Virus record (IMG/VR): IMGVR_UViG_3300027732_000060
Coordinates: 1 to 37,246 of that record
Source: a virus
Taxonomy: Duplodnaviria; Caudoviricetes
Strand: one strand, 5' to 3'
Length of the DNA: 37,246 bases
Made by a program: the position numbers and the translations under genes. The notes under the pieces are model-generated. The model was given only the letters and a program-made list of their open reading frames with translations, was not told where the DNA came from and made no database searches. Below, in pieces: positions 1 through 37,246 of the stretch; position 1 is the stretch's first letter, and each line of letters begins with the position of its first letter.

Positions 1-351
1 GCCCAAGTACCACGCCCACTCGCAGTAGTACACCCAAGATTTTTCGTTAAACGCTCTGACATGAGTCGGGTCTTGCCACGCGCCATGACTCAAGTCATAC
101 GGCACATGGATGTGCATCTTGCCACCCATCTCCAGCAAGTCGCGGCAGTTGGTCATGGCCTGCACCAAGTTCGGTATGTGCTCCAACACATCATTGGCGA
201 TGATCTTTGAAAACTGACGGTCGATCTGCATCGGCGCACCAATGTCCACAACCCAATCGGCGCCAACATCTGCGCGAATGTCAGCATTCACGCAATCGGC
301 TCGGCGATCCTTGCCCGACCCAAGATTAAGAGTTAAACCACTGTTTTGCAT
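1..351 (-). CDS. Class I SAM-dependent methyltransferase, 5' part (allele of 36203..36700, cut by window edge)
   Basis: ATG at 351; LNLGSG SAM-binding motif and DVLEHI motif; 6 aa differences from the full copy. Confidence 0.85.
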   Translation of the reverse strand, partial: MQNSGLTLNLGSGKDRRADCVNADIRADVGADWVVDIGAPMQIDRQFSKIIANDVLEHIPNLVQAMTNCRDLLEMGGKMHIHVPYDLSHGAWQDPTHVRAFNEKSWVYYCEWAWYLG

Positions 352-897
352 ATTCCGGTCTGTTTTTTAATAGCCACGGTATCGCGGCCTTGGTCAGTGC
401 GTCACCGTTCATGCCCACAGTCTGGCTGCCAATGTGATGCACATATGACCGGCTCAAGTAGTGGTGAAAGCCAGCGGCACGCAAGTCCTCGCAATGCACA
501 TCATCCGAGTACCAGTTCAGCGGTGGAAACTTCGCAGCCTCCCACGCATCGCGCCCGATCCATGCAAAGATAGGGGAGGGGCATTCCATCGGCACAATTG
601 CGTCCTCGTATGGGTACTTGAAGTAGTGCAGCTTCTGGTCAAAGGGATTACTGCGAATATTTTGTACAGGTCTGGCCGCATCGCACCGCGCTGAAACCCA
701 GCCCACAGGCTCACCGGTTTCCGCTTTCAACTGCGCCACATCCTCCATCAGCAGCCGGTAGCTGCTGGGGGTCAGCACAATATCGTCATTGGCGCAGATC
801 ACTGACTCAAACCCATCGGCAAAGGCTTTGTCAATGATCTCGTTGTAGTCCTGACCGAAATTGTGCGGCGCACCAAACACTTTTAGATCAGCGTCAA
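1..897 (+). repeat. Imperfect terminal direct repeat, copy A
   Basis: Aligns without gaps to 36350-37246 (offset 36349); 1-108 and 771-897 identical; ~59 substitutions between. Confidence 0.97.
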
Positions 898-2075: not shown

Positions 2076-2106
2076 ATTATGCAACCCTTGAGAGGTTTCT
2101 TTTCAA
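2076..2106 (-). promoter_or_regulatory. Possible sigma70 promoter in the terL 3' end, driving the ncRNA candidate
   Basis: TTGAAA-N19-CATAAT; predicted start falls at the 5' stem (~2070); spacer is long. Confidence 0.35.
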
Positions 2107-3549
2107 CGGTTGCGCCCAGTTGTTGCCAGCCTTACTCCCCATCATGCCGATCACCGCATCAGATGCAAATGTCAAACAAAACGCATCAGCCTTGTCGGGA
2201 CTCGCCAAACCCCGCTTTTTGATCTCATCTTTGCTCTCAATCTGAATCTTGCCGTTACTCGTAAACATATAACGCACAGTCGCCAACTCGGCCACCAGTA
2301 ACTCATCCTTTGGCAGCCGACAATCCCGCTGCTCCAGCCACGCCTTGGCCTTGTACCAAAGCTCGGCCTTCAGATTCCTGTAAGTACCGCCCATGGCCGG
2401 TGACTCCGCGACATTGATGCCGCGAGCCGGTAGCTTCAACTCTCTGAGACGATCTACCACGCCAGCGCCCAAGCCAATGCTGTCAACCAGTATCTCCTCT
2501 GGCCGATCGCCTGGCGATAACGCTTCATACTCGGCCACCACCGCGCCGGTCAGCTGCATCAAGTCCAGATTCTTCCAAGTCTTAATCGGCTCAGTCACCG
2601 CGTTACCCCGCCTTTTGCACAGTGCCGAGCGATCCGAGCCAAATCTGGCAACGTCCAACCCCCACACCAGTGGCGCGTAAGGCGATGCCACTACGTCCCG
2701 ATTCATCGCCAAGTCCAGCAACTCCATCGGTATCACCGTATCCTCGTCCGACTTCGGAAACTCACCCAGCACGCGAATCCGGTAAGCGTTACTCTCCTCA
2801 CCGTACCGCGACTTCATCTCCTCAATGTACGCCTCACTCACTCGCGGCGAGTCGGCGCAGGACACCTTCATAGTCACCCAATCTCCCGCCAATCGGTTAT
2901 GAGTGTCGTAAAAGAAACCGCTGGAACGCACAGGATTGCCCAGCAGCAGCGTCACGGCGTTGTGGCCGGACATCGAGCCAGATGCCGCCTCAAACACCTT
3001 CTCAGGTATACCGCTGGCCTCATCCCCCACCAGCATCACATGATCGCTGTGTACCCCTTGCAACGCCTCGGGCTGCTCGGCTCTGGATGTACGCGCCGAG
3101 ATAAACGCCTCCTCGTTAGCATCCTTCACCTCAATCCGGTCCTGCTTCACCTCCAACTGGTCAGCCAGCATCGGCGGCAGCACCTTCACCCAACGCTTAA
3201 CCTCCGCAAACAATGCGTCATATAGCTGTGAGCTTGTCGGTGCGGTGACCACCACCTTCACCGGAAACCTCAACAACAAGTACCAAATCATCGCCCAGCT
3301 CGCCGCCGTACTCTTTCCCACACCGTGACCACTTCGCACCGATATGCGGCGGTTGCCTGACGCGATGTGATTCAAGAATTCCACCTGCCACTCATCAGGC
3401 TCAGTGTTCAGCACCTCCCGCACAAACAGCACAGGATTATTCTTGTAGAGTTTGACGAATTCGATAAATGGGTTATTCGTCAGCAACTCATCAGAATTTT
3501 TTTTCGGGACGCGCTTCTTTGCGGCGGTGGGGGTAGGGGGTAGGGTCAT
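2077..3549 (-). CDS. terL: Terminase large subunit
   Basis: Walker A SGHGVGKS, Walker B LVGDEA, LGNP motif, nuclease GLDVARFGSD and SPDKADA; start uncertain. Confidence 0.96.
   Translation of the reverse strand: MTLPPTPTAAKKRVPKKNSDELLTNNPFIEFVKLYKNNPVLFVREVLNTEPDEWQVEFLNHIASGNRRISVRSGHGVGKSTAASWAMIWYLLLRFPVKVVVTAPTSSQLYDALFAEVKRWVKVLPPMLADQLEVKQDRIEVKDANEEAFISARTSRAEQPEALQGVHSDHVMLVGDEASGIPEKVFEAASGSMSGHNAVTLLLGNPVRSSGFFYDTHNRLAGDWVTMKVSCADSPRVSEAYIEEMKSRYGEESNAYRIRVLGEFPKSDEDTVIPMELLDLAMNRDVVASPYAPLVWGLDVARFGSDRSALCKRRGNAVTEPIKTWKNLDLMQLTGAVVAEYEALSPGDRPEEILVDSIGLGAGVVDRLRELKLPARGINVAESPAMGGTYRNLKAELWYKAKAWLEQRDCRLPKDELLVAELATVRYMFTSNGKIQIESKDEIKKRGLASPDKADAFCLTFASDAVIGMMGSKAGNNWAQPLKRNLSRVA
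3531..3545 (+). promoter_or_regulatory. Two overlapping KOPS-like octamers (GGGTAGGG) pointing toward the dif-like site
   Basis: GGGNAGGG at 3531-3538 and 3538-3545. Confidence 0.35.
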
Positions 3550-3699
3550 GTGGTTATGGGATTCGGTAGGTGTTCGGTTGCATCATCAGTCGCCCCCGCC
3601 GCAAACGCGCAAGGGGGGGGGCATCGAGCCGCGCCAGCCAGCAGGCGGTCGGCAGCGCCACTTGACAGCGTAAAAGTTATCCACATGGCACTATATCGG

Positions 3700-3712
3700 T
3701 AAGTCATTGATC
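3700..3712 (-). promoter_or_regulatory. IHF-binding-site-like sequence
   Basis: GATCAATGACTTA vs WATCAANNNNTTR (8/9 specified positions), between DnaA boxes. Confidence 0.45.
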
Positions 3713-3745
3713 TATATGCTTTCTTACAGAACGCTTACATAATCC

Positions 3746-3773
3746 ATTTAACACGATGTCCATTATGTTAAGT
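3746..3773 (+). other. dif-like Xer recombination site (11-6-11)
   Basis: ATTTAACACGA-TGTCCA-TTATGTTAAGT; right arm 10/11 to E. coli XerD arm TTATGTTAAAT. Confidence 0.7.
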
Positions 3774-3843
3774 CAATTGTGGATAACTTGCCTGTTTCTG
3801 CTTGTTTTGCAGGCATTTTGCAGTTATGCACAGGCCAATGTGC

Positions 3844-4275
3844 TTAACCATTGCGATTATCTGTGGATAAGTCATCGACAACCTCGACATGGCGCAGTGC
3901 CGCCATGCGTAGATCCTGTATGTTGATGTTAACCGAGGCGGCTTTTTGTAAGCCATAAGTCTTCTGATCCCACCGTTCAGCCAGCCACTGCCTGGTTCGG
4001 ATGCGTTGGACATCGCGCTGCGGGTTGCTGTCGGCCATGCTGTCAGCGATGTCCAAAGTCTCCACCGCGAGTTTATCGGCGGCTTTCGCGCGCGCACGCG
4101 CAATTATAGTGGGATCAGTATCTTCGATCCATTGCTCAAGCGCCCTGCGCCCGATGCCAAGTTCGTAGCTAATCTGCGTCTGCGACTTGCCTGCCTCGAA
4201 CATCGAGACGATCATGTCATCTGGCAAATCTTCAAGCAGCGCCATGTCTTGCTTGAATTTCGGTCTTCCTGCCAT
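3844..4275 (-). CDS. terS: Terminase small subunit-like protein
   Basis: N-terminal HTH; ARARAKAAD..DIAD..RIRTRQWLAERW..YG resembles Sf6-type TerS; upstream of terL. Confidence 0.75.
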   Translation of the reverse strand: MAGRPKFKQDMALLEDLPDDMIVSMFEAGKSQTQISYELGIGRRALEQWIEDTDPTIIARARAKAADKLAVETLDIADSMADSNPQRDVQRIRTRQWLAERWDQKTYGLQKAASVNINIQDLRMAALRHVEVVDDLSTDNRNG

Positions 4276-4277
4276 GC

Positions 4278-4367
4278 TTAAACCTGCCCTAGAGCTGTTT
4301 TAACGCGCTGGACGACATCCAGTACCCATTTCTTGATCAAGTCAGCTAATCGCTTAATTTGTTCCAT
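4278..4367 (-). CDS. Possible 29-aa amphipathic peptide
   Basis: MEQIKRLADLIKKWVLDVVQRVKTALGQV; GGAG upstream; fills the gap before terS. Confidence 0.45.
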   Translation of the reverse strand: MEQIKRLADLIKKWVLDVVQRVKTALGQV

Positions 4368-5031
4368 GTTTGTACTTCTCCGCTTGTTTACTGTCGAATT
4401 TCATCTCTGGTTGACCACCTTCAAATGCATGAAGATCGTTTTCTAAGTCATCAAAGCCTGATTGTCCACCGAATTTATCGTTTGCTTTGAAGTTAACCAC
4501 CTTGGCTGTTGGATCAAACGCCTTGACCTTGATGATCTGCTGAACCATCGGATCATTGAAGATTACCTCCAACTCTTCCATTGCCCAGATGAACTTGTTG
4601 TCCAGTTCCTGTCTTTCACGCTGCATAGCTACTGCCTCATTGACCGTCCTGACAATCACCATGACCTGGTCGTTTTGCATCTTCCACTCGATTCTCGGAA
4701 TACTGTTGCTGGCTGGAGTGATCCCCTGATTGGTTGCCCACTGATCCAGCACTGCATACGCCCTGATCATTCCCGCCAGACTTGAATCGAATTTCTCTTT
4801 GTCCTTTGACCATGCTGCTTGGTGCACTCTGCCGGTCTGAATCCAGAATTTCTCTCTAAGTTGACTGTCTACTAAAGTAATCAGTCGATTTTCACCCCAT
4901 TTTCTGTCGCTGACTGCTTTGGCGGCCTCCAACTCCACCAGTTTGGATTGAACATAAATCGTCCACGCATCTGCTTGTGGACTTGGACTCGTTGCTGCTG
5001 GATGCTGTTTGCTTTTTGATTTTGTTGCCAT
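4354..5031 (-). CDS. Hypothetical phage protein, 225 aa
   Basis: ORF 4354..5094 re-started at ATG 5031 (AAGGA RBS); the longer start runs into the iterons. Confidence 0.75.
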   Translation of the reverse strand: MATKSKSKQHPAATSPSPQADAWTIYVQSKLVELEAAKAVSDRKWGENRLITLVDSQLREKFWIQTGRVHQAAWSKDKEKFDSSLAGMIRAYAVLDQWATNQGITPASNSIPRIEWKMQNDQVMVIVRTVNEAVAMQRERQELDNKFIWAMEELEVIFNDPMVQQIIKVKAFDPTAKVVNFKANDKFGGQSGFDDLENDLHAFEGGQPEMKFDSKQAEKYKHGTN

Positions 5032-5059: not shown

Positions 5060-5170
5060 GGTAACACACAGGGGGTAACAAACCTCCGAGTCATAGACTC
5101 TCGGTTTGTTCCTGTTACCTTGTGCGGAACAAACAGGTATCGTTTGTACCTTGTTTGTTACCTGTTACCT
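5060..5170. repeat. Putative replication origin (GGTAACA/TGTTACC iterons and hairpin)
   Basis: GGTAACA at 5060, 5074; TGTTACC at 5113, 5156, 5163; inverted repeat AACAAACC..GAGTC-ATA-GACTC..GGTTTGTT; directly downstream of primase-helicase. Confidence 0.65.
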
Positions 5171-5186
5171 GTCTATTCATACAGTA

Positions 5187-7238
5187 TCAGAACGATTCGC
5201 CTGATTCGCTTTTGGGTGTCAGCCATGCAAATCCACCGCTGATATCGCCGCGCTTGTACTTTGATAAGTCCTTCCTTATGCGTCCCCATGCCACTTTGAA
5301 GCTGTCCTTGTCCTCATCAGTACACCCCATCTTTGACCATAATTCGTCCTTCCAGTGCCTCAACTCCACCGCCATCCGCTGTGACCCCTCGATCAGTTTT
5401 AAGAATCCATTCTTCTTAATTGCTATTTCCAGACATTGGAGTGACAAGATTTGATTTTGGCCAAAACCCGCGTTGCTTTTGGTGTCCTTTTTTATCGCCT
5501 CAAACTGTCCAATCTCGCTCGGATTGACGGCCAAACTAGTTTGCGGCTCACCGATCTGGAGTGTTCCGGCTGGCGCTGGCAGCTCCACCGTGACCATCTC
5601 AAAGCCATAGCGTTCATTGTCTGATCCGTCTTTCTGCTTGGCGATCCGCACCAAACCCTTCATGGAGTCCTCAATACGCAGCAACTCCAACTCGGTATCT
5701 ACGGCTGCAAGCAAACTTGAGCTGCCCCGCATTCCGCGACTACTGTCCTTCCCGCTGTGATGAATAAACAGCAACCCTGCGCCCTGCACGATCTTCTGTA
5801 TATGCCCACAGGTCACCACAAACTGCATCATGTCTGATGCCGAGTTCTCGTCTCCACCGCCAAAGGCTCGCGCCAGCGTGTCTATGACGATCAACTTAAA
5901 GTCGATGCCGGTTTCCATGACCAGCGTCTCCACGGCCAGCACTAGCGCGTTGAAGTCTTCAATGCTCGATCTCAGGTTGAGCTGATGCCTGATGACGTAG
6001 ATGGGAGCGCCGTTTTCAGTCTGGTGGTGGATTTTGAGAGCCTTAATCCGAGCGCCGATACCGCCAAAGCCCTCGCCTGCGATGTACAGCACCGCGCCAG
6101 CCTCTGTCACCTCTTTGCCCATCCACGGCCTGCCTGTCGCTATGCTGTGGGCAATGTCCAGCGCAATGAACGACTTGAATGAGCCTGGCGGTCCATAGAG
6201 CGCACTGAACGCACCTTGTGGCAACACGCCATGAATCAGCCACTTCACCGGCTCATCTTGTATCGAGTCCCAATGCTCGATGGCGATCTGCTTGCCGATC
6301 TTGGCTTGTTCCTTTGGTGGCGCTGGCTCTGCCTCGAATTCCTTGGCGATGTCCTCGGCTGCCGGTGTTGCTGTTTGCACTTGATTGATGATCGGATTCA
6401 ACCTTTCGGGCATTGTTACCTGATCCACGCTGGTGATGATTGGCGCTGCCTTGACCAGAGCCACCAGCTTGTCGCGGCTGCCACCCTCTTCTATGAATTC
6501 ATAGGCATCATCGCCCTGCCCTTGCAGACCGAGGTCAACTACCTTGACCGACTTAGCGATGGGCAGTATTGCCTCGGCTGCCTTGTGCGCGTACTGCCAG
6601 CCGACTGCATCGTTGTCCGGCAGGATGATCACTTGAGCGCCAGCGAAATACTCGGTGATGGCAGCAGGCCATGATCCTGCGCCAGTATGCGCGGTGCTGG
6701 CGATCATGCCAATTGACTTGATGGCATCGGCGGCTTTCTCGCCCTCCACCAAGAAGATGTTGCGTCCCGCGGTCTTCGCGTCCAGTAATGCTGGTAAGTC
6801 ATAAGGGACTATGCGTGCGTCACTGAGCGAGCCTTGCTTTCTGCCGTGCTCGTCAATCTTGTACAGCCGGTAAGTCTTGCCTGACTCGCCAACCTTAAGG
6901 CGCTGCTTGACGAATACCGGCTGACGGTTCTCATCGGTGTATACCCATTCCTGCTGAAACTCCACTTTGGGTATCGGCTTGATGTTGGCGAGTGGGTCTG
7001 GCCGTTCTTCCAGTTCCGGCAGCAGGTGCATTGACCTGATGGTGTGGAAGACATCCTCCTGACTGCACCCACCATGGCAGTGGAAGAGAGGCACGCCTTG
7101 GTCATTGATGTCGATGCTGAGTGATGGATTCTTGTCGCCGTTGCCTTTGCCGTGTGACGGTACAGGGCAACTCGCCACCCACTGACCGTTTGCTTTTTTT
7201 GCGTTGCCGAGCTGCTTGGCTATTTGTTCTGCTTGCAT
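5187..7238 (-). CDS. Primase-helicase (Zn finger, TOPRIM, RepA/AAA_25-type helicase)
   Basis: CPVPSH..HCHGGC; LVEGEKAAD..PDND; Walker A GPPGSFKS; Walker B VIDTL; HHSGKD..RGSS. Confidence 0.92.
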   Translation of the reverse strand: MQAEQIAKQLGNAKKANGQWVASCPVPSHGKGNGDKNPSLSIDINDQGVPLFHCHGGCSQEDVFHTIRSMHLLPELEERPDPLANIKPIPKVEFQQEWVYTDENRQPVFVKQRLKVGESGKTYRLYKIDEHGRKQGSLSDARIVPYDLPALLDAKTAGRNIFLVEGEKAADAIKSIGMIASTAHTGAGSWPAAITEYFAGAQVIILPDNDAVGWQYAHKAAEAILPIAKSVKVVDLGLQGQGDDAYEFIEEGGSRDKLVALVKAAPIITSVDQVTMPERLNPIINQVQTATPAAEDIAKEFEAEPAPPKEQAKIGKQIAIEHWDSIQDEPVKWLIHGVLPQGAFSALYGPPGSFKSFIALDIAHSIATGRPWMGKEVTEAGAVLYIAGEGFGGIGARIKALKIHHQTENGAPIYVIRHQLNLRSSIEDFNALVLAVETLVMETGIDFKLIVIDTLARAFGGGDENSASDMMQFVVTCGHIQKIVQGAGLLFIHHSGKDSSRGMRGSSSLLAAVDTELELLRIEDSMKGLVRIAKQKDGSDNERYGFEMVTVELPAPAGTLQIGEPQTSLAVNPSEIGQFEAIKKDTKSNAGFGQNQILSLQCLEIAIKKNGFLKLIEGSQRMAVELRHWKDELWSKMGCTDEDKDSFKVAWGRIRKDLSKYKRGDISGGFAWLTPKSESGESF

Positions 7239-7261
7239 TTATGGCTGCCAATATTTAAAGG

Positions 7262-7291
7262 AAAAAAAAGCCTGGGGTTTTACGCCCAGGC
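7262..7291 (-). terminator. Rho-independent terminator after SSB-like gene
   Basis: Minus strand GCCTGGG-8 nt-CCCAGGC followed by T8. Confidence 0.8.
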
Positions 7292-7307
7292 ACTTGACTG
7301 CTAAGTC

Positions 7308-7895
7308 TTAGAACATCTCGTCATCAGCCACTGCTGCGGCCATCACTGACTTGGGTGGCGCTGGTGGTGCAACTGGTGCAGGCGTAGGCTTATTGAATGG
7401 CGCTGGCTCTTCCACGCTGTCAGCGTCCATTCCAGCGGGACGATCAATCCAACTGATGATGTTGAACGCTGGAATGCGAGTCGTGCCTTTGCCGATCTTC
7501 TCCAACTTGCTGCCGGTGTACTCCAGCACAGGCAATTTGCCAGCATTGGCGGCTTGCTGTGCCGCGCAGTCCAAGTACAGTTTTTCCAATCCCATGTTCG
7601 GACCGACTCCAGAAGATGACCACTCGCACAGTCCGAGCGCCTTGTTGTAGAAGTGGATGATGAATCCGCGCTTGTGATCTGGTGACGGTTGCTGGCCTTT
7701 CTTGCCAAGTGAGACATCGGCCTGCCAATCGCGTACACCTACACCGAGTTGCAGCCAGCCGGTTTGCACCGTGTTGATGTCGAATACAACCTTGCCGAGT
7801 TGGATTTCCTCGCCGAGATTGTTTGTCCAAGCGTTGGCTTGGGGAGAGAAGCGGATGTAGTTTCCAGAGCCGCCAGCAGATGAGAGGTTTAACAT
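7308..7895 (-). CDS. Probable single-stranded DNA-binding protein
   Basis: Between nuclease and primase; Pro/Ala linker and acidic-aromatic tail DDEMF. Confidence 0.6.
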   Translation of the reverse strand: MLNLSSAGGSGNYIRFSPQANAWTNNLGEEIQLGKVVFDINTVQTGWLQLGVGVRDWQADVSLGKKGQQPSPDHKRGFIIHFYNKALGLCEWSSSGVGPNMGLEKLYLDCAAQQAANAGKLPVLEYTGSKLEKIGKGTTRIPAFNIISWIDRPAGMDADSVEEPAPFNKPTPAPVAPPAPPKSVMAAAVADDEMF

Positions 7896-7927
7896 TTTGA
7901 GTTTAGCTTTCTAAGTTTCGGGGTTGC

Positions 7928-7957
7928 ATTATTGACTTAGCGAGCGATCTTTTGCAA
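7928..7957 (-). promoter_or_regulatory. Possible sigma70 promoter for the SSB-like gene
   Basis: TTGCAA-N18-AATAAT in the 3' end of the DUF2800 gene. Confidence 0.35.
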
Positions 7958-9047
7958 GCGTCAGTCCACTTGAAATCTTGACGGTTAACTCGTCCAAGAT
8001 AACTCGGTTTTCCTTTGGTAGCAGTTTCTCTGCTGCCGCTGGAGTAATTAGTGTTGTTTCAAATATCTGGCTAGTGGTAAGTCCTGAGTCAACCAGTTTC
8101 ATGGCTGCCTTGTCACCGTCAACCCATTTGCGCGTTGGACGTTTAGGTGCAAGTTGCCATCCGGCCAGCACCATGCCGTCTTTTTCCATGGCCTGCATTG
8201 CGTGCTCTCTGACCGAGTCAATGAATTTCTCTACTTGCGGTGCTTTGTCTAGAATGGCGCTGATCTGGTCTGCTGTGAGCGCCAGCATGACCTGCTTGAT
8301 GTCTTCCTTGTTCAACGCGGTGATGTCCTGTTGTTTGGCCACGACATCGAATTGCTGTTTCTGTGCAGGGCAAATTGTCTTTGCATCGCACCACTGGCAG
8401 GCTGACTCTGATAGATTGAATCTGGGCGCGTCACTGATAGCGTCATCAACAGCAGGCATCAACGTAAACTCTTCCCACTCACCGAGTTCATCGGCAGTCA
8501 TGATGTGTATGCGCTTTTCACCGTGATGCGGCTGGATGATCTGGAATTCGATCTCTTCAACGTAGTGCAGATTTAGCGTTGCCATGGCCGCCAGAGCGTA
8601 TATTTTTAACTGCTCAGTGTCAGCGTCCACCCAACCTTTGCCTGTCTTCAAGTCAGCGACTATGAGCTTTTTCTTTATCTCAGAATAGCCAATGACATCG
8701 GCAGTACCGCCAAGCACAAAGTCTGGTGTCTTAAATAGGCTGACAGGCACTTCAACTTTGACCAAGCCTAGATCGTCTTGAATCGCCCATATTGCCTTCA
8801 GATGCTGCAATGCGTAGTCGCAATTGTCAGCGGTCATGGTGATGCCTTCAACCGTCTGACCGATGAACTGCATCGGGTCAGAGCCAAGCTGAAAGCAAGT
8901 CTCGGCCAGCGCGTGAATGGCAGTGCCAATGTTGGCCGCCTCACCTGATGGGCGCTGCGGTACTTGAGCGCAGAGCTTTGCGGATGCGGGACAGGCGATC
9001 CAGCGTGATGCGGCTGACGGTCTGAGCCTTAGTTGTTTTGTTGCCAT
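7929..9047 (-). CDS. DUF2800 / Cas4-like PD-(D/E)XK exonuclease
   Basis: PSAASRWIACP, GTAIH, GTAD, DLKTG, QLKIYA, CQWC..CP. Confidence 0.88.
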   Translation of the reverse strand: MATKQLRLRPSAASRWIACPASAKLCAQVPQRPSGEAANIGTAIHALAETCFQLGSDPMQFIGQTVEGITMTADNCDYALQHLKAIWAIQDDLGLVKVEVPVSLFKTPDFVLGGTADVIGYSEIKKKLIVADLKTGKGWVDADTEQLKIYALAAMATLNLHYVEEIEFQIIQPHHGEKRIHIMTADELGEWEEFTLMPAVDDAISDAPRFNLSESACQWCDAKTICPAQKQQFDVVAKQQDITALNKEDIKQVMLALTADQISAILDKAPQVEKFIDSVREHAMQAMEKDGMVLAGWQLAPKRPTRKWVDGDKAAMKLVDSGLTTSQIFETTLITPAAAEKLLPKENRVILDELTVKISSGLTLAKDRSLSQ

Positions 9048-9253
9048 GAGTCTCTTTCTATGTGGAAATCATTCAAAATTAATTGGTATGCGATTTTTCG
9101 TACTTCGTCAGTGACTGCGAATCCAAGGTCTTCTGGGTCTTGTAATCTTTTAAGCAAAACAGTTTTGTCTTGATTTGCTTTGCGTGACTCATCCAGACGC
9201 TGATTGAGCCAGAGAATGTGCTCACGCAATACTTCACGTTCTTTATCCTGCAT
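9029..9253 (-). CDS. Hypothetical coiled-coil protein
   Basis: Re-started at ATG 9253 (MQDKERE); overlaps both neighbours. Confidence 0.65.
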   Translation of the reverse strand: MQDKEREVLREHILWLNQRLDESRKANQDKTVLLKRLQDPEDLGFAVTDEVRKIAYQLILNDFHIERDSWQQNN

Positions 9254-9722
9254 GGCGTGAACCCCAATACGCAATCAGCGCAGCGTCAGCGCGGCCATCA
9301 TCCTTGACGCGCTTGAATTGATCTTGGTCTGATGGGAAGAGTTCCATGGCGCGCGCGCGGCTGGCATCCTTGCCCTGTCCACGGCCAACGGCCTTGACCC
9401 AAGTGGCAGGCGGCACAAATGTGACCGGCATCTTGAATGCGGCCAGAATGCCCTCGATCATGCCAAAGCTGCGGCCAAAGCTAAAGACGCTGGTAACGCC
9501 TTGGCCTGTTACTGCCCCCACACGCTCGCAGTAGACATGGCAGTCTCTGCCGGAGTACAGGTAGAGCATCTCGGCCAACTCAGCGGCGCTGACCTGCCGC
9601 TTGGCTTTGCCGTTGCGCTCCACCGTCATGGTGGGCATATCGAATATCTTGAGGCTCTCAGTCGAGATGATGGCAATTGCGCCGGAGAGGCCAGGATCAA
9701 TGCCAATGCTGTATTTGCTCAT
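9243..9722 (-). CDS. RuvC-like Holliday junction resolvase
   Basis: GIDPGLSGAIA, catalytic E, FSFGRSFG, P..W, DGRADAALIA. Confidence 0.88.
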   Translation of the reverse strand: MSKYSIGIDPGLSGAIAIISTESLKIFDMPTMTVERNGKAKRQVSAAELAEMLYLYSGRDCHVYCERVGAVTGQGVTSVFSFGRSFGMIEGILAAFKMPVTFVPPATWVKAVGRGQGKDASRARAMELFPSDQDQFKRVKDDGRADAALIAYWGSRHAG

Positions 9723-9955
9723 TTGACGGCCTCTTCCATGGCCTTGTTGAGTATGGTCATGCGTGCTGACACCAGCGCATTGGCGGCCTCATCCAAGCGC
9801 AGGACGGTGCTGTACAGTGGTTCGGTGATGCCGTTCTGCCATCTGCTGACCTGAGCTTGGTTGATTTCAGCGACTCGGCAGAGATCGGACATCTTGAATC
9901 CGGCAGACTCCACCTTGGTTTTTATATCGTGAATTGCTTGCTGTGCTATTTTCAT
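9719..9955 (-). CDS. XRE/Cro-like HTH regulator
   Basis: MSDLCRVAEINQAQVSRWQNGITEP HTH; first gene of the leftward operon; start 9955 preferred to 9973. Confidence 0.8.
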   Translation of the reverse strand: MKIAQQAIHDIKTKVESAGFKMSDLCRVAEINQAQVSRWQNGITEPLYSTVLRLDEAANALVSARMTILNKAMEEAVK

Positions 9956-9962
9956 GTCTAGA

Positions 9963-9992
9963 ATGTTAACCATGTTTTGATAGAAGCGTCAA
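9963..9992 (-). promoter_or_regulatory. Leftward sigma70 promoter, probably leaderless transcript
   Basis: TTGACG-N18-TAACAT, then 7 nt to ATG 9955. Confidence 0.55.
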
Positions 9993-10002
9993 GTGTACAG
10001 AC

Positions 10003-10032
10003 AAAAAAGGGGATCAGCGTGAACCGATCCCC
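10003..10032 (-). terminator. Rho-independent terminator ending a candidate sRNA
   Basis: GGGGATCGG-TTCACG-CTGATCCCC followed by T6. Confidence 0.7.
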
Positions 10033-10065
10033 ATAAAGGCAACTGCTGGAAGCATGAACCAGCAA
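10003..10065 (-). ncRNA. Candidate ~60-nt two-hairpin sRNA
   Basis: TACAAT at 10071-10076, hairpin TGCTGG-9 nt-CCAGCA, then terminator; no plausible CDS; -35 not evident. Confidence 0.4.
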
Positions 10066-10120
10066 CCCACATTGTAGTGGCAGAATACTTGACAAGTTTG
10101 TAAGGTCTAAATAATAGTTG

Positions 10121-10148
10121 TTGATGAGTTTGGTAAATCGATTATGAT
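10121..10148 (+). promoter_or_regulatory. Rightward (early) sigma70 promoter
   Basis: TTGATG-N16-TATGAT; second candidate TTGACA (10089)-N15-AATAAT. Confidence 0.5.
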
Positions 10149-10182
10149 TCATTCATCAACAACGCAACCCCAAGGAAACAAA

Positions 10183-10455
10183 ATGACAAACGCAACACAA
10201 ATAACTGCTCAAGAAGAACGCAACATCAATATGTATGGAGTAGCTGATATTGACGCTTATGTGGAATCTGTTAAAGAATCCATCACTTACCAATTCACAG
10301 GCGCAAACATGGTTGTGGCTGGCCTGATGTCTGATGCTCAAGAATTGATTGCTGGTGGCGCACAAAACAGCAGCCGCCAAACACTCAACATTGCCAAGCA
10401 CATTTTGTTTTTGATTATGGATGGCGAATTGGTTGGCACAGTAGAGCGCAAGTAA
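10183..10455 (+). CDS. Hypothetical early protein, 90 aa
   Basis: AAGGA RBS before ATG 10183. Confidence 0.75.
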   Translation: MTNATQITAQEERNINMYGVADIDAYVESVKESITYQFTGANMVVAGLMSDAQELIAGGAQNSSRQTLNIAKHILFLIMDGELVGTVERK

Positions 10456-10461
10456 ACCCAA

Positions 10462-10483
10462 GGGGGCGCAAGCCCCCATCTTT
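10462..10483 (+). terminator. GNRA-capped hairpin, weak terminator or processing site
   Basis: GGGGGC-GCAA-GCCCCC followed by ATCTTT. Confidence 0.5.
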
Positions 10484-10494
10484 AAGGAGTCCAC

Positions 10495-10635
10495 ATGAAC
10501 CACACACAACACGCCATGACCGAATACAACCACCGCAGGCTTGGCAAACGCGCAGAGGCTGCCTATGACTACTTGCTGTGCCTTGTCATCGGCACTGGCT
10601 TGGCCGCACTGCTCGTAGCATGGTGGTCATCATGA
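10495..10635 (+). CDS. 46-aa single-TM membrane protein (absent from ORF track)
   Basis: AAGGAG RBS; MNHTQHAM..YLLCLVIGTGLAALLVAWWSS; ATGA overlap with next gene. Confidence 0.7.
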   Translation: MNHTQHAMTEYNHRRLGKRAEAAYDYLLCLVIGTGLAALLVAWWSS

Positions 10636-10883
10636 CTGACCTGCAAGACTACTGCCAAGAACCGCGCACCATGGATGAATTGGTGGAGGCCGGATACAAG
10701 CAGCACGCGGTCTACAACGCCGTCAAGCGCAATGAATTGAAGAACACCAATGCCATGGATGCATGGGGGCGCAAACAGCGCGGCAAAGGCTTATTCCTGT
10801 CCACCGTGACACCCATTCCCTATAACGCAACCCTGCTAGTGCAAGCCTGGAACACACAACCACAAGGAGAGACTCATGTCTGA
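10632..10883 (+). CDS. Hypothetical protein, possibly wHTH-like
   Basis: Re-started at ATG 10632 (MTDLQDYCQEPRT). Confidence 0.65.
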   Translation: MTDLQDYCQEPRTMDELVEAGYKQHAVYNAVKRNELKNTNAMDAWGRKQRGKGLFLSTVTPIPYNATLLVQAWNTQPQGETHV

Positions 10884-11145
10884 GAATATGCAAATTGAGA
10901 TTGACCGAGCTGTCAACAAGTTCACGCCACCCATGGAAGTGGGCGGTGGATTCCTCACCCGCGAGGACATCAAGACCTTTGCACGCAAGGCCGTGACTGA
11001 TGGCACGTTCATCGGCTGGACTCACGCGGAGAACATGACCAGAGAGCGTATGCAGCGCAAGATCACCGAGATGGAGCACGAGGTCACCATACTGCGCGAG
11101 CGCGTGAAAGAAGTTGAGATGGAGCTGCTGGCGGTTCAGAAGTGA
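10876..11145 (+). CDS. Hypothetical protein with C-terminal coiled coil
   Basis: AAGGAG RBS; heptad-rich C-terminus. Confidence 0.7.
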   Translation: MSENMQIEIDRAVNKFTPPMEVGGGFLTREDIKTFARKAVTDGTFIGWTHAENMTRERMQRKITEMEHEVTILRERVKEVEMELLAVQK

Positions 11146-36206: not shown

Positions 36207-36700
36207 GCTGGTACTTTCTTCAAAATCACATACATAGAATCAACTGCGCGAGGCAGTCTCATTATTTCATCTTGCGGCAATTTTAGGCTTGCACCGTACT
36301 CGCTGAGACGCATCTCCAAATGCGTCAACTCAAACCGACTGCCTTTCCAGCCCAAGTACCACGCCCACTCGCAGTAGTACACCCAAGATTTTTCGTTAAA
36401 CGCTCTGACATGAGTCGGGTCTTGCCACGCGCCATGACTCAAGTCATACGGCACATGAATGTGCATCTCACCACCCATCTCCAGCAAATCGCGGCAGTTG
36501 GTCATGGCCGTCACCAGATCAGGTATGTGCTCCAACACATCATTGGCGATGATCTTGGAAAACTGACGGTCAATTGTCATTGGCTTGCCAATGTCAACAA
36601 CCCAATCAGCGCCAACATCGGAACGAATGTCAGCATTCACGCAATCGGCACGGCGATCCTTGCCCGAACCGAGATTAAGAGTTAAACCACTGTTTTGCAT
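36203..36700 (-). CDS. Class I SAM-dependent methyltransferase
   Basis: LNLGSG, NAD, DVLEHI, L..GG..I.VP, DPTH; no DNA-MTase DPPY or PC motif. Confidence 0.85.
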   Translation of the reverse strand: MQNSGLTLNLGSGKDRRADCVNADIRSDVGADWVVDIGKPMTIDRQFSKIIANDVLEHIPDLVTAMTNCRDLLEMGGEMHIHVPYDLSHGAWQDPTHVRAFNEKSWVYYCEWAWYLGWKGSRFELTHLEMRLSEYGASLKLPQDEIMRLPRAVDSMYVILKKVPA

Positions 36701-37246
36701 ATTCCGGTCTGTTTTTTAATAGCCACGGTATCGCGGCCTTGGTCAGTGCGTCACCGTTCATGCCCACAGTTTGGCTGCCAATGTGATGCACATAAGACCG
36801 GCTCAGGTAGTGGTGAAAGCCAGCCGCAATCAGGTCAGCGCAATGCACATCATCCGAGTACCAATTCAGTGGTGGAAACTTTGCAGCCTCCCACGCATCA
36901 GCACCAATCCATGCAAAGATAGGGGATGGGCATTCCAGCGGCACAATTGCGTCCTCGTATGGGTACTTGAAGTAGTGCAGCTTCTGGTCAAAGGGGTTAG
37001 AACGCACATTTTGCACAGGTCTGGCCGCATCACAACGCGCTGAAACCCAGCCCACAGGCTCACCGGTTTCCTCTTTCAACTGCGCCACATCCTCCATCAG
37101 CAGCCGGTAACTGGTGGGTGTCAGCACAATATCGTCATTGGCGCAGATCACTGACTCAAACCCATCGGCAAAGGCTTTGTCAATGATCTCGTTGTAGTCC
37201 TGACCGAAATTGTGCGGCGCACCAAACACTTTTAGATCAGCGTCAA
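36350..37246 (+). repeat. Imperfect terminal direct repeat, copy B
   Basis: Matches 1-897 at ~93% identity. Confidence 0.97.
36675..37246 (-). CDS. Glycosyltransferase, 3' part (allele of 326..1024)
   Basis: 7 aa differences from 326..1024 over the shared region. Confidence 0.75.
   Translation of the reverse strand, partial: DADLKVFGAPHNFGQDYNEIIDKAFADGFESVICANDDIVLTPTSYRLLMEDVAQLKEETGEPVGWVSARCDAARPVQNVRSNPFDQKLHYFKYPYEDAIVPLECPSPIFAWIGADAWEAAKFPPLNWYSDDVHCADLIAAGFHHYLSRSYVHHIGSQTVGMNGDALTKAAIPWLLKNRPEYAKQWFNS

What the first reader, a model, noticed from the sequence alone, without database searches (positions are those of the whole stretch)
3531..3870. Host chromosome signals (DnaA boxes, IHF site, dif, KOPS) packed between terS and terL
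Seen: three perfect DnaA boxes (3677, 3778, 3862), one single-mismatch box (3824), an IHF-like site (3700), a dif-like site (3746) and tandem GGGTAGGG (3531-3545) within ~340 bp. Known: these are bacterial oriC/datA and terminus signals, normally on opposite sides of a chromosome; datA uses DnaA boxes plus IHF to inactivate DnaA-ATP. Inference: the phage has its own primase-helicase and iteron origin, so this locus may be a DnaA sink that stalls host initiation, a DnaA-dependent origin plus resolution site for a plasmid-like state, or a host-factor landing pad at the packaging start.
Basis: partly seen in the sequence, partly recalled or inferred. Interest (0 to 1): 0.85.

Follow-up and report, generated by a model that had tools for sequence, protein, structure and literature searches.

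The report
Host Xer site at phage end
A family of freshwater phages keeps, between its two DNA-packaging genes, an altered copy of the site where bacteria untangle their chromosomes, ringed by motifs for the host proteins DnaA and IHF, which likely lets the host's XerC/XerD enzymes join the ends of the phage's own DNA.

Summary
All three perfect DnaA boxes of the 37-kb genome lie at 3677-3870 (0 of 400 simulations cluster so). The dif-like 28-mer (3746-3773) matches the published Rhodoferax dif at 23 of 28 bases; its XerD arm occurs in 95 of 95 distinct terS-terL gaps of relatives. Its arms are host-type, but its centre ends CCA; no phage site has the host's ATA (0 of 49). An Acinetobacter site with a CCA-ending centre is cleaved without FtsK. 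The IHF-like site sits on the XerC side at a fixed distance. The closest cultured relative (phiM5) ends its terminal repeat at the same C-run motif just downstream, and cultured T7-like phages carry DnaA arrays or a CCA-type dif site inside their terminal repeats. Best reading: a terminal-repeat module where host XerCD joins phage ends (0.45). Termini, binding and recombination are unshown. A datA-like sink or DnaA origin is unlikely: the geometry is not kept and a separate iteron origin exists. No integrase, no prophage found. The scan noted this module before on other DNA; I found no paper on it.

The parts
2077..3549 (-). Terminase large subunit terL (490 aa)
   Evidence: PHROG 2 E 3.9e-48; 55.6% identical to phiM5 TerL
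3531..3545 (+). Tandem GGGTAGGG in the first terL codons; part of the packaging-type G/C-run, outside the predicted terminal repeat; not treated as KOPS
3576..3621 (-). C-run / GGGGGC / TGCA motif; by analogy with phiM5 the terminal repeat is predicted to end near 3583
   Evidence: phiM5 repeat 1-357 ends 12 nt after the same motif; conserved in relatives; the end itself is inferred
3677..3685 (+). DnaA box 1 (perfect); position variable among relatives
3700..3712 (-). IHF-like site, 1 mismatch to consensus, 33 bp from the XerC arm
   Evidence: XerC side 34 of 52 representatives vs XerD side 4 of 52; gap 33-34 in 28
3746..3773 (+). dif-like Xer site ATTTAACACGA-TGTCCA-TTATGTTAAGT (XerC arm 3746-3756, centre 3757-3762, XerD arm 3763-3773)
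   Evidence: 23/28 to Rhodoferax ferrireducens dif, 24/28 to L626; XerD arm in 95 of 95 gaps
3778..3786 (-). DnaA box 2 (perfect), 4 bp from the XerD arm
3824..3832 (+). DnaA box 3 (1 mismatch; perfect in many relatives)
3862..3870 (-). DnaA box 4 (perfect) inside the 3' end of terS
   Evidence: codons TTA 41/41, TCC 40/40, ACA 41/41 invariant while neighbouring degenerate codons vary
3844..4275 (-). Terminase small subunit terS (143 aa)
   Evidence: PF20901 E 6.6e-10; PHROG 1482
5100..5187 (.). Separate iteron-type origin candidate just after the primase-helicase gene (5187-7238 -); context
   Evidence: 7-mer repeats at this place in the 14 relative stretches listed, with differing repeat sequences

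Best explanation
The locus is a phage-borne dif-like site with host-type XerC and XerD arms, an altered centre, an IHF-like site and four DnaA boxes; it is predicted to lie in the short terminal repeat, where host XerC/XerD would likely recombine the two copies and so join genome ends. Shown: the motifs, their conservation, the host-type arms, the non-host centre, one copy per genome, no tyrosine integrase. Inferred: (1) the terminal repeat runs from within terS to about 3583, so each virion DNA carries the module at both ends in direct repeat; (2) after injection XerCD recombines left and right copies into a circle for host-polymerase replication from the iteron origin, or joins monomers head to tail into concatemers; (3) the CCA-ending centre frees XerD from FtsK and mismatches host dif on the XerD side, which limits integration; (4) IHF bends the XerC-side flank and DnaA coats the end, likely protecting it and helping the two ends meet. 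Step 4 is the weakest.
For: Host-type arms: Rhodoferax dif 23/28; 31 sites, centre TGTATA in 23, none TGTCCA. Centre: XerD-side trio CCA 24, TCA 12, CTA 7, GCA 5, GCG 1 of 49 distinct phage sites, ATA 0; ATA in 31 of 65 host candidate sites, some of which are chance matches. Acinetobacter xrs38/xrs66 (centre T/CCGCCA) are cleaved by XerD without FtsK activation (PMC11705084, passages). The XerC-side trio varies freely (16 types in 49) and the site flips orientation in some relatives, as expected for self-recombination. One site per genome in the window and 19 of 20 near-complete relatives; 60 of 67 perfect boxes lie within 250 bp of it. End position: phiM5 repeat; Ralstonia phage RpT1 has a TAACCA-centre site in both copies of a 209-bp end repeat; three cultured T7-like phages have 5-8 DnaA boxes inside 177-292-bp exact repeats; T5 has DnaA boxes in its repeat (bioRxiv 10.1101/866236). 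The module recurs beside unrelated terminases. No PolA, ParA or tyrosine integrase in the window; no tyrosine integrase in 20 of 20 relatives.
Against: Termini are not mapped: only contigs were available and contig ends show no sharp pile-up. phiM5 itself has neither dif site nor boxes in its repeat, and relatives at 69-74% TerL identity lack the module (G813 has none genome-wide), so it is dispensable in part of the family. Accessory-driven Xer at cer/psi is favoured on supercoiled DNA, which injected linear DNA is not. DnaA arrays occur without dif (A7, phiEap-1, ZK1, Venkman) and dif without boxes (RpT1, MJing1, C72C1), so DnaA need not serve Xer. Helical phasing of boxes to the core is significant per family but not after collapsing shared positions (p 0.05-0.23). 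In C72C1 and MJing1 the IHF-like site is on the XerD side. Chi-type octamers are frequent, so RecA/RecBCD could circularise instead, as proposed for P1. No binding or recombination was tested.
Confidence: 0.45

Rival explanations
1. cer/psi-like multimer resolution: the site acts only on replicating circles, with IHF and DnaA standing in for PepA/ArgR/ArcA; its place near terS is secondary.
For: Accessory-like fixed IHF spacing on the XerC side; one site per genome; supercoiled substrate fits known Xer control.
Against: No ParA or sign of a plasmid state; a lytic phage gains from multimers; the consistent end position is unexplained.
Confidence: 0.2
2. Binding-only end cap: XerD, IHF and DnaA bind the terminal repeat to shield it from RecBCD, tether it to the membrane (T5 iss model) or shape the packaging complex, without strand exchange.
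For: XerD arm more conserved than XerC arm (0.95 vs 0.79); DnaA arrays in repeats without dif; T5 hypothesis (in silico only).
Against: Both inner arms, the 6-bp spacing and centre positions 5-6 are constrained, as for a recombining site; host dif shows the same arm asymmetry.
Confidence: 0.15
3. IMEX-type attP: the phage integrates at host dif by XerC-only exchange, as VGJphi does.
For: No own integrase; the window's centre matches host TGT on the XerC side and differs on the XerD side, the VGJphi pattern (PMC5357621); TGT in 20 of 49 sites.
Against: 29 of 49 sites lack TGT; no close prophage in 401 + 401 + 7 genomes searched (hits were 30-32% identical and lacked the module); 0 of 120 genome pattern loci had terL/terS; integration would split terS from terL. 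These genomes are samples, many incomplete.
Confidence: 0.09
4. DnaA-dependent origin, with the Xer site for a plasmid-like state.
For: Four boxes, an IHF site, a 50-bp stretch at 30% GC (lowest 1.3% of windows); no PolA.
Against: Separate iteron origin after the primase-helicase; box number, orientation and position turn over; no ParA; the AT-rich stretch is the IHF site and its flank.
Confidence: 0.06
5. datA-like DnaA sink or inactivator that stalls host initiation.
For: Boxes plus IHF site, as in datA (PMC4585315); box 4 under strong selection.
Against: datA depends on box-IHF-box spacing, not kept here; a sink would not need to sit beside dif (60 of 67 boxes).
Confidence: 0.05

Closest known systems
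Chromosomal dif / XerCD / FtsK of Comamonadaceae (Rhodoferax ferrireducens dif, PMC2731167, table passage)
   Same: 28-bp layout; XerD arm 11/11, XerC arm 8/11
   Different: Centre TGTCCA vs TGTATA; flanked by DnaA boxes and an IHF-like site (host candidates: 0 of 30 with a perfect box within 150 nt; 1 of 38); no KOPS polarity; on a phage
Acinetobacter plasmid xrs38/xrs66 (PMC11705084, passages)
   Same: Host-type arms and a centre ending CCA; cleaved by XerD without FtsK there
   Different: No accessory sequences found there; plasmid; activity of the phage site is untested
Plasmid cer (ColE1) and psi (pSC101) (PMC5357621; bioRxiv 10.64898/2026.02.23.706985; passages)
   Same: Single Xer core with accessory-type sites, presumed self-recombination
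   Different: Accessory motifs are IHF/DnaA type and lie on both sides, not PepA with ArgR/ArcA; substrate predicted to be linear ends
IMEX attP of VGJphi, TLCphi, CTXphi (PMC5357621, passages)
   Same: Integrase-less phage with a dif-like site; XerD-side centre mismatch as in VGJphi
   Different: Tailed 36-kb phage; XerC-side centre not held to host; no prophage found
T5 iss region (Davison, bioRxiv 10.1101/866236; abstract and passages)
   Same: DnaA boxes conserved in a phage terminal repeat, with no origin role
   Different: 10-kb repeat, two-step injection; no XerD arm within 2 mismatches beside the boxes in T5 5500-11000
P1 loxP/Cre cyclisation (recalled, no call)
   Same: Site-specific joining of terminally redundant ends
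   Different: Host recombinase instead of own; short fixed repeat predicted instead of headful redundancy
E. coli datA / oriC (PMC4585315, passages)
   Same: DnaA boxes with an IHF site
   Different: Spacing between boxes and IHF site not conserved; no clear unwinding element

Membership tests
Xer recombination site (dif/xrs) | 11-6-11 layout with host-type arms | tested here: met
Xer recombination site (dif/xrs) | Bound and cleaved by XerC/XerD | not testable with these tools
   needs EMSA and cleavage assays
Chromosomal dif | Centre equal to host dif | tested here: not met
   0 of 49 phage sites end in ATA
Chromosomal dif | KOPS polarised towards the site | tested here: not met
   distant KOPS 26 towards / 15 away; permuted control 25/14
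IMEX attP | No own tyrosine integrase | tested here: met
   0 of 21 records
IMEX attP | Found integrated at host dif | tested here: inconclusive
   not found in the genomes searched; samples only
cer/psi | Accessory sequence on the XerC side | tested here: inconclusive
   IHF-like site on XerC side 34 of 52; boxes mostly on XerD side
cer/psi | PepA with ArgR or ArcA dependence and resolution selectivity | not testable with these tools
   no assay; ARG/ArcA boxes not searched
datA | Fixed box-IHF-box spacing | tested here: not met
oriC-like origin | AT-rich unwinding element beside a box array | tested here: inconclusive
   30% GC over 50 bp, overlapping the IHF site
phiM5-type short terminal repeat | C-run/GGGGGC motif before terL | tested here: met
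phiM5-type short terminal repeat | Mapped fixed termini enclosing the module | tested here: inconclusive
   contigs only

The most novel reading that the evidence does not exclude
Lytic tailed phages widely use host XerCD as a Cre/lox equivalent: an FtsK-independent, CCA-centre dif site in the terminal repeat joins the injected ends, and host DnaA acts as an end-capping and bridging accessory factor, a role outside replication initiation and transcription control.
Probability: 0.2. Interest if true: 0.9.

Novelty: new variant of a known kind. Interest (0 to 1): 0.7.

Why it matters
How short-repeat phages without their own recombinase or polymerase join their ends is open. A host-Xer route would extend Xer hijacking from integration and plasmid resolution to the lytic cycle, make xerC/xerD, IHF and DnaA host factors, and give DnaA boxes in phage terminal repeats (unexplained in T5) a testable role. 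The arms also act as a host tag: they point to a Comamonadaceae-type host for an abundant uncultured freshwater family.

Tried and rejected
KOPS role: the window's 5 sites all point to the dif site, but over 20 records distant sites are 26/15 and a permuted control gives 25/14; 17 of 95 gaps have none (hand count). 'Degenerate XerC arm like cer': my first reading, dropped. Depth of Logan contigs: exact-match pieces in the gap were deeper than flanks in X1 (687 vs 197-231), X2 (499 vs 145-173), X4, X9 and X13, not in X5, and X16 had no cover there; depth sums strains and is no copy number, so it is not used as evidence. Contig ends: 23 within 250 bp upstream of terL vs 11 downstream, no single coordinate. 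Promoter/terminator scan of 3400-4400: none. blastn of the gap against cultured phages: no match; core only gave Acinetobacter HNH hits; plasmid hits were weak. terS had no cultured hit. Genome-contig pattern scan: chance matches, 3 of 120 with a perfect box vs 103 of 119 viral loci. Genus-level searches covered only 7 genomes. T5 stretch: boxes, no dif. Phage tf: no site. Papers 10.1101/633727, 10.64898/2026.01.13.699316, PMC12195039 and 10.1101/2020.04.27.064238 (passages) gave nothing on the module or on termini.

Full report
Context. The window is one near-complete virus record; its ends overlap by 897 bp at 93%, so the unit genome is about 36.3 kb. It is a phiM5/LUZ24-like tailed phage, held mostly in freshwater metagenome runs, with a primase-helicase and no PolA, ParA or tyrosine integrase. 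terL is 2077-3549 (-), terS 3844-4275 (-).

Observation. The three perfect DnaA boxes are the only ones in the genome; three within 200 bp arose in 0 of 400 simulations. The dif-like site is 3746-3773. The IHF-like site has one mismatch. The KOPS-like tandem lies in the first terL codons.

Conservation. Of 159 loci from terL and terS searches (the best 80 of 598 and of 192 relatives), 139 held both genes and gave 95 distinct gaps; 95 of 95 have a XerD arm within 2 mismatches. Over 41 representatives column conservation was 0.95 for the XerD arm, 0.85 for the IHF-like site and 1.0 for box 4, against 0.53-0.69 for spacers. Box 4 keeps three fixed degenerate codons (41/41, 40/40, 41/41) while neighbours vary: selection on DNA. 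Other boxes move and flip but persist. In the 700 nt upstream of terL a perfect box was found in 38 of 38 loci at 90% TerL identity or more, 38 of 44 at 80-90%, 16 of 45 at 70-80% and 3 of 17 at 60-70%; downstream controls had 0 of 123 boxes and 0 of 123 XerD arms (loci with under 700 nt upstream were dropped). A group at 69-74% lacks the module. Distant loci L546, L550 and L556 carry near-canonical arms, some inverted. A pattern scan of viral contigs (119 loci shown of about 240) also found the module beside unrelated terminases; 103 of 119 viral matches had a perfect box nearby, against 3 of 120 in bacterial genomes. The window and 19 of 20 near-complete records have exactly one site, and 60 of 67 perfect boxes lie within 250 bp of it (19 records were chosen because they carry the site, G813 as a control).

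The Xer site. The published Rhodoferax ferrireducens dif matches at 23 of 28 bases (PMC2731167, passage). In the unnamed family of G066, 35 of 121 genomes have arms of this type; L622 equals the published site, so the family is likely Comamonadaceae (inference). Host centres were TGTATA in 23 of 31 and never TGTCCA. Among 49 distinct phage 28-mers the XerD-side trio is CCA 24, TCA 12, CTA 7, GCA 5, GCG 1 and never ATA; the XerC-side trio takes 16 forms. So the arms track the host and the centre avoids it. Acinetobacter xrs38 and xrs66, centre T/CCGCCA, are cleaved by XerD without FtsK activation, and the authors suspect the centre (PMC11705084, passages). That makes an FtsK-free reaction plausible here; it is an analogy. 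The IHF-like site is on the XerC side in 34 of 52 representatives against 4 on the XerD side, at 33-34 bp in 28. Box distances look helically phased per family (p below 0.001) but not after collapsing shared positions (p 0.05-0.23).

Position. phiM5 (TerL 55.6%) has an annotated 357-bp terminal repeat that starts in the ORF before terL and ends 12 nt after a C-run/GGGGGC motif (GenBank annotation; paper not read). The window has the same motif at 3576-3621, which predicts a repeat end near 3583 and puts the boxes, IHF-like site and dif site inside the repeat and the KOPS-like tandem outside (inference). Cultured phages give independent cases: RpT1 has a TAACCA-centre site in both copies of a 209-bp end repeat, related Ralstonia phages have matches near record ends, and VB_Ship_A7, phiEap-1 and ZK1 have 8, 5 and 8 boxes inside exact repeats of 177, 195 and 292 bp. 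These four were picked from BLAST hits, not sampled blind. MJing1 and C72C1 have a dif-like site just after terS without boxes; Venkman has boxes and an IHF-like site at its record ends without a clear dif. Direct mapping failed: only contigs were served and contig ends do not pile up.

Mechanism. I commit to end-joining by host XerCD (0.45): two copies in direct repeat on the injected molecule recombine to a circle, or between molecules to concatemers; IHF and DnaA shape and protect the end. Rivals: cer/psi-like resolution of circles (0.2), binding-only end cap (0.15), VGJphi-like integration (0.09), DnaA origin (0.06), datA-like sink (0.05). Against the origin: an iteron array follows the primase-helicase in the window and in the 14 relative stretches listed. 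Against integration: no close prophage in 401 order-level, 401 family-level and 7 genus-level genomes (the samples overlap a little). Against the best reading: unmapped termini, absence in phiM5 and a sister group, the supercoiling preference of accessory-driven Xer, separable DnaA and dif parts, and Chi-type octamers that would allow a RecBCD route as proposed for P1.

Known and new. Xer use by phages is known for integration (PMC5357621, passages); DnaA boxes in a terminal repeat are described for T5 (bioRxiv 10.1101/866236, abstract and passages). Literature searches (listings only, open library only) returned no description of a dif site with DnaA/IHF motifs at the end of a tailed phage; subscription papers and bioRxiv supplements were not seen. 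The scan's notes report the same module on other genomes; they gave leads, not support. Verdict: new variant of a known kind, interest 0.7.

Noticed in passing
window, genome-wide: 14 E. coli-type Chi octamers (mean 1.7, max 6 in 400 simulations), rank 13 among octamers; the related GCTGGCGC ranks first with 18. No polarity to the dif site in relatives. Could be codon-driven.
   Followed up: partly
window 1-897 and 36350-37246: Ends overlap at 93.4%: the contig closes on itself through two strain variants, duplicating a methyltransferase-like ORF.
   Followed up: yes
window 5100-5187; L641-L678: Iteron-type array after the primase-helicase; the repeat unit differs among relatives, suggesting swappable origin specificity.
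   Followed up: partly
L683-L686, L689-L690: Cultured T7-like phages carry 5-8 DnaA boxes inside short terminal repeats, spaced 21-22 or 30 bp in phiEap-1; 440 records hit the box-array query.
   Followed up: partly
L687:82-109, L688:473-500: Ralstonia phage RpT1: dif-like site with CCA-ending centre in both terminal repeats.
   Followed up: yes
L680:1-400 and 38614-38622: OM43 phage Venkman: DnaA boxes and an IHF-like site at the record ends beside a terS-like ORF, no clear dif.
   Followed up: partly
L682:39157-39184; L283:2811-2838: Alphaproteobacterial-type dif-like sites after terS in MJing1 (listed host Microcystis, which may be wrong) and C72C1.
   Followed up: partly
L292, L309: Two Sulfuricurvum genome loci with IHF-like site, XerD arm, CCA-ending centre and a perfect DnaA box; no terL hit.
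   Followed up: no
L061, L062, L066, L100: About 400-500-bp insertions in the gap between the module and terL leave the module intact.
   Followed up: no
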